From assembly GCF_016026235.1 (NCBI RefSeq), contig NZ_CP065613.1: a stretch of 64,000 nt of DNA; one strand, given 5' to 3'. The position numbers and the translations under genes were made by a program. Of the stretch, positions 32,897 through 35,573 are shown in pieces. The notes below the pieces were generated by a model, which saw only the letters and a list, made by a program, of their open reading frames with translations, was not told the origin of the DNA and did not search any database. This stretch comes from Escherichia coli (GTDB taxonomy: Bacteria > Pseudomonadota > Gammaproteobacteria > Enterobacterales > Enterobacteriaceae). Every line of letters starts with the position of its first letter. Position 1 is the first letter of the stretch.

Positions 32897-32914
32897 TTCT
32901 TACAGCTGTAGGCA
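32897..32914. promoter_or_regulatory. EvgA box upstream of safA-ydeO
   Basis: TTCTTACA-gc-TGTAGGCA, close to the EvgA inverted-repeat consensus TTCYTACA-N2-TGTARGAA. Confidence 0.4.
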
Positions 32915-33032
32915 GAAATTTATATCTTATAGTATGTAGTTTAATTTAATCCATGTGAGCAAATTGCGCGATAATAGTCAATGAGATATTCTTCTGCTGT
33001 GCGGATGACAGCAGAAGAAATGAGAAGAGGCA

Positions 33033-35312
33033 TTAATTTGATGGTTCTAATTCAACCGGAATACTTTTATAGCCAGGAATGCCACTTAATGGATCGTGGT
33101 TATCAAGTGTTAGCATGTGATTCGATTCTGGAAAATAGGTCACCAGTGAGCGGTCAGCCATAGGGTAAATGACCACTTTTAATCTATCCATGCGGCGTGA
33201 GCTGCGCTTACCGTCTGGCGTAAGCGCAATAAGATTAACTCTTTCGCCGTTTTTTACACGGCAAATTTTAGCTTGTTTAGCACTCATAAAGACCACATCT
33301 CGTTGACCGAATACCCCTCGATAACGATCATCCATACCATAAATCGTCGTGTTGTACTGATCGTGGCTGCGTACTGTCGCCATGACCAGCTTACTGTTAA
33401 ACGCTGAAGAGGGATCTTCTAACAGCCCTTTGCTGGTAATGAAATTAGCCTTACCTGACGGCGTCATCCAGCGCCTTTCAGCAGCTGCATTTATCAGGTG
33501 AAAACCTCCAGGATGTCGGATGCGCTGGTTATAGTCGGCGAACTCTGGCAGCACAGCTTCAATGTCATTGCGAATGCGATCATAATCTTCCACCAGATAC
33601 TCCCAGGCTACCACGCTCTGGGGTAGTGCTGCCTGCGCGATTCCCGCGACCACTGCACACTCTGATTTCAGCATTACACCGGCGGGTTTTAACACGCCAC
33701 GCGAGGCATGAATCATCGACATTGAATCCTCAACGGTTACCGCCTGCGCACCGCTTTTTTGCATGTCAATCTCGCTACGCCCAAGAACCGGCAGAATATA
33801 GCTATGCCGTGCGGTCAGCAGATGAGAGCGGTTAAGCTTAGTGGCTACATGTACCGCCAAATCTAATTGCGTTAACGGTACAGCGCTCGCTTCCCGATCT
33901 GGCATTGCCAGTGCAAAGTTGCCCCCCATGCAGATCAATGCTCGAGCCTGCCCCGTACATATTGCTTGCATGCTGGCAATTGCAGCATGTCCAGGTACAT
34001 GAGGTGGGGTGAAGCCATAGCGCTCACCCAGGCGAGCCAGAAACTCTGCAGACGGTTTCTCGGTGATACCGACGGTTCGGTCGCCCTGTACATTAGAGTG
34101 GCCACGTAGTGGGCAGATACCCGCACCAGGCTTGCCTATGTTACCTTTCATCAACAGCAGATTGACCAGTTGCTGTACATTCTGGGTACCATGTTCGTGC
34201 TGAGTGATCCCCATTCCGTAACAGATAATGGTGCGTTCGGCAGCGGCATATGCATCAGCCAGTTCGGCGATTTGTGTCTGACTTAGTCCAGAAATACGTT
34301 CGATATCTTTCCACTCGGAATTGAGAACGTCACGGCGTAGCTCGTCAAAGCCGACGGTATGCGTTTGAATAAATTCGTCATCCAGCAATGAGGGCCGACC
34401 TGCGGCGCTTGCAGCATCATCGCGCTCAATTAACAGGCGCATCATCCCCTTGAGCAACGCCATATCACCACCAATGCGCACGTTATAGTAGGCACTGGCC
34501 AACTGAGTCTCAGAGTTCGTCAGCATTTCAAACGGGTTTTGCGGTGCGGTAAATCGCTCCAGGCCACGTTCCTGTAGAGGATTGATGGCGATCATTTTCG
34601 CTCCCCGTTTCACTAAAGCGCGCAACGAAGTCAGCATGCGAGGGTGGTTTGTACCAGGGTTATGCCCAATGCAAATGACTAAATCGCACTTCTCAAAGTC
34701 TTCCAGCAACACGGTCCCTTTACCTACACCGATACTCGCTGCCAAACCCACGCTTGTCGGTTCATGGCACATGTTGGAGCAGTCGGGAAAGTTATTGCTC
34801 CCGTATTCACGGGCAAAAAGCTGATAAAGAAAGGCAGCTTCATTGGAAGTGCGCCCCGAAGTATAGAATTCAACTTGATTGGGATCACTATAGCTTTGAA
34901 GACGAGCGCCAATTTCGTCGAAAGCTTGTTGCCAGCTTAATGGCTTGTAACAGTCGCTGACGGCATCATATTTCAAAGGCTGAGTGAGACGTCCCGCAGC
35001 CTCAAGCTCGTGATCTCCCCAGGTAAGTAATGATTGAACCGTATTCTCAGCAAAGAAAGAGGCATTTACCTGCTTATCCGTGACTTCCCAGGCGATTGCT
35101 TTTGCGCCGTTTTCACAAATGTCGAATGACGCACTGTGCTTAGGATCTGGCCATGCACAACCCGGACAGTCAAAGCCCTCTGGCTTATTCATGTCAAACA
35201 TGGCAATAACATCCTGGCGTATATCCATCTGCTTACGTACTGCATTTGCTACGGATTTAACAGCACCCCACCCACCGGCAGCTCCCTGGTAGGATTCAAT
35301 TTTTTTCTTCAT
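33033..35312 (-). CDS. ydeP: Molybdopterin oxidoreductase YdeP (acid resistance)
   Basis: 759-aa ORF with formate-dehydrogenase-like molybdopterin domains. Confidence 0.9.
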
Positions 35313-35555
35313 CTGCTTATCCTGTGTGGAAATGAATTATTAGGATTTGTAATAGCGATGATGCACAGTATATACAAAGGGATTATCGCCAACATGGATA
35401 TATAAGAGTAGGGGACTACTCTCTTTCTATTTTTAATCTATTATCGTTAAACCATAGATTAAATACGATAAGGTAAGCATCATCTCTCATAGTGTTTAAA
35501 TTAACATATTTTTCAATATAAAAAATAAGACTCTGGCTTCAATTGTGCGCGGATT

Positions 35556-35573
35556 TTCTTACAGGTGTAGGAT
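35556..35573. promoter_or_regulatory. EvgA box upstream of ydeP
   Basis: TTCTTACA-gg-TGTAGGAT, about 250 bp upstream of ydeP. Confidence 0.4.

What the first reader, a model, noticed from the sequence alone, without database searches (positions are those of the whole stretch)
32897..35573. EvgA boxes upstream of safA-ydeO and of ydeP
Both acid-resistance promoters carry an 18-bp inverted repeat close to the EvgA consensus (TTCTTACA-N2-TGTAGG..). The EvgA to YdeO to GadE regulatory cascade elements in this window look intact, in contrast to the neighbouring decayed loci.
Basis: established knowledge. Interest (0 to 1): 0.3.

Follow-up and report, generated by a model that had tools for sequence, protein, structure and literature searches.

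The report
Known EvgA sites at safA and ydeP
The two 18-base inverted repeats are the already described binding sites of the acid-stress regulator EvgA in front of safA-ydeO and ydeP of Escherichia coli; they are intact here, so the finding is correct but ordinary.

Summary
They are not chance matches. The 14-base core occurs twice in the window and in none of 100 shuffles.

I built a weight matrix only from the boxes of four other EvgA-controlled K-12 promoters (emrK, frc, yfdX, yegR). It scores the two sites 23.7 and 21.1 bits out of a possible 28.1. The next best site in the window scores 7.3, and the best in 200 simulated windows scores 17.8.

The safA box is identical to the K-12 box. The ydeP box differs at one base and carries the allele seen in the other seven Escherichia sequences I aligned. 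YdeO, SafA and YdeP are full length. This is the known EvgA to YdeO/SafA/YdeP branch of acid resistance, so it is already known.

Two caveats apply. evgAS and gadE lie outside the window. The "decayed neighbours" are real but fewer than the nearest RefSeq annotation suggests.

One addition: the two promoters align without gaps for about 75 further bases, with the box at the same distance from an extended -10. I could not check whether this is published.

The parts
32897..32914 (.). EvgA box of the safA-ydeO promoter. It reads TGCCTACAGCTGTAAGAA in the direction of the gene.
   Evidence: 21.1 bits. Identical to the K-12 site. 16 of 18 columns are invariant in 8 Escherichia sequences.
35556..35573 (.). 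EvgA box of the ydeP promoter. It reads ATCCTACACCTGTAAGAA in the direction of the gene.
   Evidence: 23.7 bits. One base differs from K-12 (AGCC...), and the window carries the allele seen in the other seven aligned sequences. 14 of 18 columns are invariant.
32822..32896 (-). safA-ydeO promoter core downstream of the box. It aligns without gaps to the ydeP promoter core. Shared blocks: AAnTCCGCnCA, TGAAGC, AGTCYTATTT, TGTTAwwTTAA.
   Evidence: (45/75 identities, z 6.9).
35481..35555 (-). ydeP promoter core downstream of the box, paralogous in sequence to the safA promoter core.
32839..32847 (-). Proposed extended -10 of the safA promoter (TGTTATATT). The hexamer starts 61.5 bp from the box centre.
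   Evidence: Sequence. Same register as in ydeP. TGn and the hexamer are kept in the divergent Escherichia locus L007. The position is inferred; no start site was mapped here.
35498..35506 (-). Proposed extended -10 of the ydeP promoter (TGTTAATTT). The hexamer starts 61.5 bp from the box centre.
   Evidence: Sequence. It fits a transcript start near 35490, taken from the 178-nt leader used in PMC11210196. Conserved. The promoter scan's alternative, TTGAAG-16-TATATT at 35542-35515, is less well conserved.
32588..32785 (-). safA, the 65-aa connector that links EvgS/EvgA to PhoQ/PhoP.
   Evidence: 65 aa, 3 substitutions from K-12. Role as described in PMC9496106.
31753..32514 (-). ydeO, an AraC-family activator of gadE and other genes. 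It lies 73 nt downstream of safA and has no EvgA box of its own.
   Evidence: 253 aa, 2 substitutions. No further box in the window.
33033..35312 (-). ydeP, an acid-resistance oxidoreductase of the formate-dehydrogenase type.
   Evidence: 759 aa; 34 nucleotide differences but only 2 amino-acid changes from K-12.
32989..33019 (-). Hairpin just after the ydeP stop codon (12-bp perfect stem). It probably ends the ydeP transcript ahead of the safA promoter.
   Evidence: I19. (-17.5 kcal/mol, z -3.9). The stem is conserved while the loop differs in L007. There is no clear U-tract, so function as a terminator is inferred.

Best explanation
These are the two known binding sites of the response regulator EvgA (NarL/LuxR family) at the promoters of safA-ydeO and ydeP, in an Escherichia coli-type chromosome.

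The established mechanism in K-12 is as follows. Mild acidity activates the sensor kinase EvgS, which phosphorylates EvgA. EvgA binds the 18-bp inverted repeat TTCYTACA-N2-TGTRAGAA and switches on two separate transcription units. One is ydeP. The other is safA-ydeO, whose products feed into PhoQ/PhoP (SafA) and into gadE and the glutamate decarboxylase system (YdeO).

Shown here:
- The sites exist and are not chance matches.
- They are orthologous to the K-12 sites.
- They score as EvgA boxes, and they are the only such boxes in the window.
- The half nearer the promoter (TGTAAGAA) is invariant across Escherichia.
- The three genes are intact.

Inferred:
- Each box is centred near -74.5 relative to the transcript start, upstream of a promoter with an extended -10 (TGnTAnnnT) and a poor -35.
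- The conserved stretch between box and -10 contributes to activation.
For: - **Position and chance:**
- **Gene identity:** the stretch 31500-36400 is 100% identical to a RefSeq E. coli record that annotates ydeO, safA and ydeP there. It is 98.4% identical to K-12.
- **Same box at other targets:** one clear 18-bp box is found in each K-12 upstream region of genes reported as direct EvgA targets: safA, ydeP, emrK/evgA, frc, yfdX and yegR.
- **Motif recovered without a consensus:** a search of the four independent upstream regions that was given no consensus recovers the same motif, 44/54 against 38-41 in shuffles.
- **Independent matrix scan:** 23.7 and 21.1 bits, next best 7.3, best of 200 simulated windows 17.8.
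- **Conservation:** the ydeP promoter core is in 5316 of 5426 complete E. coli genomes, and the safA-ydeP segment is in 5314. Both boxes are kept in a divergent Escherichia lineage, with changes only in the half farther from the promoter and in the spacer.
- **Restricted to Escherichia:** ydeP homologues of Edwardsiella (85% aa), Yersinia rohdei, Raoultella and Tatumella have no box. This matches the report that EvgS/EvgA is confined to E. coli and Shigella (PMC9496106).
- **Literature:** EvgA binds the safA-ydeO promoter directly (PMC9496106). The ydeP promoter is directly regulated by EvgA (PMC7174508). EvgA binds inverted repeats at yfdX and yfdWUVE (PMC3720670). An EvgA site is found at all known direct targets (PMC4283999).
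Against: - No binding or expression data exist for this strain.
- The primary papers that defined the motif and footprints (Masuda and Church 2003; Itou et al. 2009) are not in the held library. The published site list could not be used, and I located the training sites myself. yegR as a direct target rests on my memory of Masuda and Church 2003.
- The transcript start used for the geometry is inferred from the design of a probe in PMC11210196, not from a stated mapping. The promoter scan prefers a different -35/-10 pair at ydeP, which would put the box near -56.
- evgAS is outside the window, so whether the regulator is present and functional in this genome was not shown.
Confidence: 0.93

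Rival explanations
1. The two 18-mers are chance palindromes in AT-rich intergenic DNA and have no regulatory role.
For: Short imperfect palindromes are common. With 2 mismatches allowed, shuffles give a mean of 0.42 hits, and 11 of 100 shuffles reach 2 hits.
Against: Both hits are exact, and no shuffle gave an exact hit. Matrix scores are 21-24 bits against a best of 17.8 in the simulated windows. Both lie upstream of the two known EvgA targets in this region. Both are conserved across Escherichia while the DNA upstream of them diverges.
Confidence: 0.01
2. The repeats are bound mainly by another regulator of the same family (for example RcsB or GadE), and EvgA acts only indirectly at these promoters.
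For: NarL/LuxR-family proteins recognise related short inverted repeats. RcsB and GadE both act in the same acid network (PMC4283999). No binding assay was done here.
Against: The GadE target sequence (GAD box) is different. It occurs in the window only upstream of gadB, at 20950-20969. The same 18-bp motif is shared by exactly the promoters reported as direct EvgA targets. The literature reports direct EvgA binding or regulation at both promoters.
Confidence: 0.04
3. The similarity of the two promoters reflects only a past duplication of a roughly 95-nt promoter segment. Apart from the 18-bp box and the -10, the shared bases are not under selection.
For: The two regions align without gaps over box plus 75 nt, as expected for a duplicate. 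They flank ydeP as direct repeats.
Against: Positions identical between the two promoters are enriched among positions that are invariant across 8 Escherichia sequences in both (36 of 45 against 14 of 30, odds ratio 4.6, p 0.005). DNA downstream of the boxes is more conserved (81% and 76% invariant) than DNA upstream (58% and 42%).
Confidence: 0.3

Closest known systems
EvgA sites of the ydeP and safA(b1500)-ydeO promoters of E. coli K-12 (Masuda and Church 2003; Itou et al. 2009)
   Same: Same genes, same position relative to the start codons (111 and 243 nt) and same orientation. The safA box is identical. The ydeP box is identical at 17 of 18 bases.
   Different: One base differs in the half of the ydeP box farther from the promoter: ATCC here, AGCC in K-12. 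K-12 is the exception among the 8 aligned sequences. The flanking genome differs: ydeQ carries IS2 780 bp upstream of the box.
EvgA boxes of emrKY/evgAS, yfdX, frc(yfdW) and yegR in K-12
   Same: The same 18-bp inverted repeat, TTCYTACA-N2-TGTRAGAA.
   Different: Those promoters share little or nothing with safA and ydeP beyond the box when kept in the same register: z 2.3-2.8 for emrK, not significant for the others. yfdX has two boxes 38 bp apart.
BvgA-activated promoters of Bordetella (BvgA is the closest characterised homologue system of EvgA; from my own knowledge of that literature)
   Same: A high-affinity inverted repeat well upstream of the -35, with a weak -35 hexamer.
   Different: In Bordetella, further dimers bind weaker sites between the primary site and the -35. 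Here the 18-mer centred 22 bp downstream matches the consensus at only 7-8 of 16 positions (my reading of the sequences). Secondary binding is not shown.

Membership tests
EvgA binding site (EvgA box) of the E. coli EvgS/EvgA regulon | 18-bp imperfect inverted repeat matching TTCYTACA-N2-TGTRAGAA | tested here: met
   2 mismatches each to the symmetric consensus. 23.7 and 21.1 of 28.1 bits on a matrix built from other promoters.
EvgA binding site (EvgA box) of the E. coli EvgS/EvgA regulon | Lies upstream of a gene reported as directly activated by EvgA | tested here: met
   Upstream of safA-ydeO and of ydeP. Direct regulation is stated in PMC9496106 and PMC7174508.
EvgA binding site (EvgA box) of the E. 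coli EvgS/EvgA regulon | Orthologous to the K-12 sites (same place, same sequence) | tested here: met
   Identical (safA) or 17/18 (ydeP), with the same distances to the start codons.
EvgA binding site (EvgA box) of the E. coli EvgS/EvgA regulon | Conserved where the regulator exists and absent where it does not | tested here: met
   Present in a divergent Escherichia lineage and in about 98% of complete E. coli genomes. Absent upstream of ydeP homologues in Edwardsiella, Yersinia, Raoultella and Tatumella. Whether those genera have evgAS was taken from the literature and not tested.
EvgA binding site (EvgA box) of the E. coli EvgS/EvgA regulon | Bound by phosphorylated EvgA in vitro or in vivo | not testable with these tools
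   Needs a gel shift, footprint or ChIP. Reported for K-12 in papers that are not held in the library.
EvgA binding site (EvgA box) of the E. coli EvgS/EvgA regulon | Cognate evgAS present and intact in the same genome | not tested
   evgAS is not in the window. The nearest RefSeq genome is rearranged relative to K-12, so evgAS could not be located by synteny.
Sigma-70 promoter with extended -10 | TGn followed by a TAnnnT hexamer at the right distance from the transcript start | tested here: inconclusive
   TGTTAATTT (ydeP) and TGTTATATT (safA) sit in the same register and are conserved. The start site is only inferred, and the promoter scan proposes another pair at ydeP.
BvgA-type promoter with several activator dimers | Secondary lower-affinity sites between the primary site and the -35 | tested here: inconclusive
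   The intervening DNA is conserved and shared by the two promoters. It matches the box consensus only weakly: 7-8 of 16 (my reading of the sequences), and no second site above 7.3 bits in the window.

The most novel reading that the evidence does not exclude
The unit that EvgA uses at safA-ydeO and ydeP may not be the 18-bp box alone. It may be a fixed module of about 95 bp: box, then AAnTCCGCnCA, TGAAGC and AGTCYTATTT, then an extended -10 exactly 61.5 bp from the box centre. This module would have been duplicated between the two promoters and kept under selection. The conserved middle part could be weaker secondary EvgA sites, as in BvgA promoters, or a contact surface for RNA polymerase. 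I could not check whether the primary papers already describe this.
Probability: 0.2. Interest if true: 0.3.

Novelty: already known. Interest (0 to 1): 0.1.

Why it matters
It matters little beyond annotation. It shows that this IS-rich Escherichia chromosome keeps the cis-elements and genes of the EvgA-dependent branch of acid resistance, and that IS2 landed 780 bp upstream of the ydeP box without touching the promoter.

The only point with some research value is the extended, position-locked similarity of the two promoters. It gives a concrete set of bases to mutate when asking how EvgA activates transcription from a site centred near -74.

Tried and rejected
- **Primary literature:** I tried to read the papers that define the motif and footprints (PMC151933, PMC523220, doi 10.1271/bbb.80795, PMC3133336, PMC2042202, PMC10734491). 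None is held. Text searches for 'EvgA box' and for the motif itself found nothing useful. I therefore derived the matrix sites myself and checked them with a search given no consensus.\n- **gadE:** I looked for a box upstream of gadE in K-12. None was found (6 or more mismatches), so gadE was not used.\n- **Nearest RefSeq annotation:** I first took the annotation of E. coli FDAARGOS_943 as the annotation of the window. I rejected this for the flanks. The window is identical to that record only around the finding, and 99.95% identical with structural differences elsewhere. ydeN, pqqL and digH, pseudogenes in that record, are intact here.\n- **evgAS:** I tried to locate it in that genome by synteny. 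The region sampled corresponds to a distant part of the K-12 map, so the genome is rearranged, and I stopped.\n- **RNA families:** a scan of 31000-37000 found nothing at E up to 0.1.\n- **Promoter scan:** it found no consensus promoter at safA and one at ydeP. I consider that one less likely than the conserved extended -10.\n- **Other promoters:** a shared module between safA/ydeP and frc, yfdX or yegR is not supported when the promoters are kept in the same register.

Full report
**Observation.** The sequence shows TTCTTACAGCTGTAGGCA at 32897-32914 and TTCTTACAGGTGTAGGAT at 35556-35573. The ORF list places three genes on the minus strand:
- a 253-aa ORF at 31753-32514
- a 65-aa ORF at 32588-32785
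- a 759-aa ORF at 33033-35312

The first 18-mer lies 111 nt upstream of the 65-aa ORF and the second 243 nt upstream of the 759-aa ORF. Each 18-mer is an imperfect inverted repeat, symmetric at 6 of 8 positions, around a 2-base spacer. The 14 specified bases of TTCTTACANNTGTAGG occur exactly twice in the window and never in 100 shuffles. Allowing 2 mismatches adds no further site.

**What the genes are.** Window 31500-36400 is 100% identical to one RefSeq chromosome (E. coli FDAARGOS_943). The same stretch is present at 95-99% identity in about 5300 of 5426 complete E. coli genomes. In that record the three ORFs are annotated ydeO, safA and ydeP. Compared with K-12 MG1655:
- YdeO has 2 substitutions.
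- SafA has 3 substitutions.
- YdeP has 2 substitutions.

All three have the K-12 length and no stop codon. ydeP has 34 nucleotide differences but only 2 amino-acid changes, which indicates purifying selection.

**Are they EvgA boxes?** The papers that defined the motif are not in the held library. I therefore fetched the K-12 upstream regions of genes reported as direct EvgA targets. These are emrK/evgA, frc and yfdX, and yegR, which I included from my memory of Masuda and Church 2003.

Each region holds one clear 18-bp site:
- emrK/evgA: TTCTTACGCCTGTAGGAT
- frc: TTCTTACAACTGTAAGAA
- yfdX: GTCTTACAATTGTAGGAA, plus a weaker second site 38 bp away
- yegR: TTCCTACATAAGTAGGAA

To limit circularity, I searched those four regions for the best shared 18-mer without supplying any consensus. 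The search recovers the same site: 44 of 54 identities, against 38-41 in 15 shuffles.

A symmetrised matrix from these four sites scores the window's ydeP site 23.7 bits and its safA site 21.1 bits, out of a possible 28.1. The third-best site in 64 kb scores 7.3. The best score in 200 simulated windows is 17.8.

The K-12 safA site is identical to the window's. The K-12 ydeP site differs at one base, and K-12 is the exception among the eight aligned sequences.

**Literature.**
- EvgA binds the safA-ydeO promoter directly (review PMC9496106, citing Itou 2009).
- The ydeP promoter is directly regulated by EvgA (PMC7174508).
- EvgA binds inverted repeats at yfdX and yfdWUVE (PMC3720670).
- An EvgA site is found at all known direct targets (PMC4283999).
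- EvgA is a NarL-family regulator with solved structures.

**Conservation.** The 86-nt ydeP promoter core is found in 5316 of 5426 complete E. coli genomes, and the safA core in at least 4422. The lower count for safA may reflect limits of the search rather than absence. The 3.2-kb safA-ydeP segment is in 5314 genomes.

I aligned the window, K-12, five diverse E. coli strains and a divergent Escherichia lineage (L007, YdeP 96% identical):
- The half of each box nearer the promoter, TGTAAGAA, is invariant.
- Changes occur only in the farther half and the spacer.
- 14 of 18 (ydeP) and 16 of 18 (safA) box columns are invariant.
- The 75 nt downstream of the boxes are 81% and 76% invariant. The 60 nt upstream are only 58% and 42% invariant.

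A scan of one genome per species found ydeP homologues in Edwardsiella (85% aa), Yersinia rohdei (67%), Raoultella and Tatumella (56-57%) and many Burkholderiaceae. None has a box: all score below 12 bits, against about 20-27 bits for the boxes in the Escherichia-derived loci. This agrees with the statement that EvgS/EvgA and SafA are confined to E. coli and Shigella.

**How it most likely works.** Established for K-12: mild acidity activates EvgS, EvgA is phosphorylated, it binds the box and it activates ydeP and safA-ydeO. SafA then activates PhoQ, and YdeO activates gadE.

The rest is inferred from this sequence. The window shows two separate transcription units, each with its own box. They are separated by a stable hairpin just after the ydeP stop codon (32989-33019; -17.5 kcal/mol, z -3.9). 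The hairpin's stem is conserved while its loop differs in L007.

A published ydeP leader probe begins 178 nt before the start codon, which corresponds to window position 35490. With that start:
- TGTTAATTT (35506-35498) is an extended -10.
- The -35 region is poor.
- The box spans -83 to -66, centred at -74.5.

The safA promoter has TGTTATATT in exactly the same register (32847-32839).

The promoter scan instead proposes TTGAAG-16-TATATT at ydeP, which would put the box near -56. That -10 is altered in L007, whereas the extended -10 is kept. I prefer the extended -10 but cannot settle the point without a mapped start.

**An addition to the finding.** The two promoters resemble each other well beyond the 18-mer. 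Aligned by the box, they share 45 of the next 75 bases without any gap. Shuffles give a mean of 19.6 (z 6.9), and the best of 80 other registers gives 32.

Shared blocks, counted in bases downstream of the box:
- AAnTCCGCnCA at 1-10
- TGAAGC at 15-20
- AGTCYTATTT at 24-33
- TGTTAwwTTAA at 50-60

Positions identical between the two promoters are preferentially those that never vary among the eight Escherichia sequences (36 of 45 against 14 of 30; odds ratio 4.6, p 0.005). This argues for constraint rather than a decaying duplicate.

The emrK promoter shares this weakly (z 2.3-2.8). frc, yfdX and yegR do not when kept in the same register. The block AGTCYTA resembles a half-site (TTCYTA), and the 18-mer centred 22 bp downstream of the box matches the consensus at 7-8 of 16 positions. 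Secondary EvgA binding of the kind known for BvgA is therefore possible but not shown.

**The 'decayed neighbours'.** The window is not the FDAARGOS_943 record throughout. It is 99.95% identical over 15166-39442 and differs structurally on both sides. That record marks ydeN, pqqL and digH as pseudogenes, but all three are full-length ORFs here.

Decay that is really present in the window:
- IS2 (36356-37686, with a 5-bp duplication) inside ydeQ, 780 bp upstream of the ydeP box.
- An ECSE_1600-family autotransporter split into three ORFs, with an IS110-family element at 46975-48171.
- A junction near 15150-15166 that joins ddpD to a truncated dosC, plus a truncated ddpF.
- lsrA split into two ORFs.

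**Comparison and novelty.** These sites are members of the EvgA box family on every feature that can be tested from sequence. Binding, induction and the presence of evgAS remain untested. They are orthologues of sites described more than fifteen years ago, so the finding is already known and correctly interpreted. Its interest is low. The extended promoter module is the only part that might be new, and I could not check it against the primary papers.

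Noticed in passing
window 32822-32914 and 35481-35573: The safA and ydeP promoters align without gaps for 75 nt beyond the EvgA box (45/75 identities, z 6.9). 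The extended -10 sits at the same distance in both. Shared positions are enriched among those invariant across Escherichia.
   Followed up: yes
window 36356-37686: IS2 (1331 bp, 5-bp target duplication) is inserted in the fimbrial gene ydeQ, 780 bp upstream of the ydeP EvgA box. The promoter itself is untouched.
   Followed up: yes
window 20950-20969 (- strand): An exact copy of the 20-bp GAD box TTAGGATTTTGTTATTTAAA (sequence recalled from memory) lies upstream of gadB. The GadE-dependent output genes gadBC and their site are therefore also in this window.
   Followed up: partly
window 15166-39442 compared with L001: The window is not identical to the best RefSeq match (E. coli FDAARGOS_943). 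It is 99.95% identical over 24 kb, with different content on both sides. ydeN, pqqL and digH are pseudogenes in that record but intact ORFs here. The source strain is not among the 5426 complete E. coli genomes searched.
   Followed up: partly
window 13280-15952: A truncated ddpF and ddpD run directly into a truncated dosC (268 aa). Compared with K-12, ddpCBAX, dosP and part of dosC appear to be deleted.
   Followed up: partly
window 45161-51917: An ECSE_1600-family autotransporter is broken into three ORFs (676, 584 and 504 aa), with an IS110-family transposase gene at 46975-48171.
   Followed up: partly
window 55484-57021: lsrA is split into two overlapping ORFs (322 and 214 aa) instead of one 511-aa protein. 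This suggests a frameshift.
   Followed up: no
window 39016-42428: A full-length fimbrial usher (883 aa) and a 239-aa ORF that I take to be the chaperone (not checked) are present where K-12 has only the ydeT fragment. Apart from ydeQ::IS2, this fimbrial operon is more complete than in K-12.
   Followed up: no
window 35404-35423 (- strand): A stable hairpin lies in the long ydeP leader (-9.4 kcal/mol, z -4.7) and is conserved in E. coli. Its function is unknown.
   Followed up: partly
L006 (JARKOR010000108.1) and L044 (USHE01000194.1): L006, a contig binned as 'Candidatus Nanosynbacter', carries ydeP (100% aa) with both boxes, the ydeP box in its K-12 form. L044, from an 'uncultured bacterium' MAG, carries the 3' end of ydeP and the safA box. 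Both look like contamination of the bins.
   Followed up: no
L008, L009, L011 (Edwardsiella): Edwardsiella species encode YdeP at 84-85% amino-acid identity, far closer than other Enterobacterales (56-67%), and without any EvgA box. This suggests horizontal transfer of ydeP.
   Followed up: no
L003 16501-16556 and L004 8340-8360 (K-12): The K-12 yfdX promoter has two boxes 38 bp apart. The yegR promoter contains ATTTAAACACTAGAGAG, nearly the same as ATTTAAACACTATGAGAG around the proposed ydeP start, but shifted by 5 nt relative to the box.
   Followed up: no
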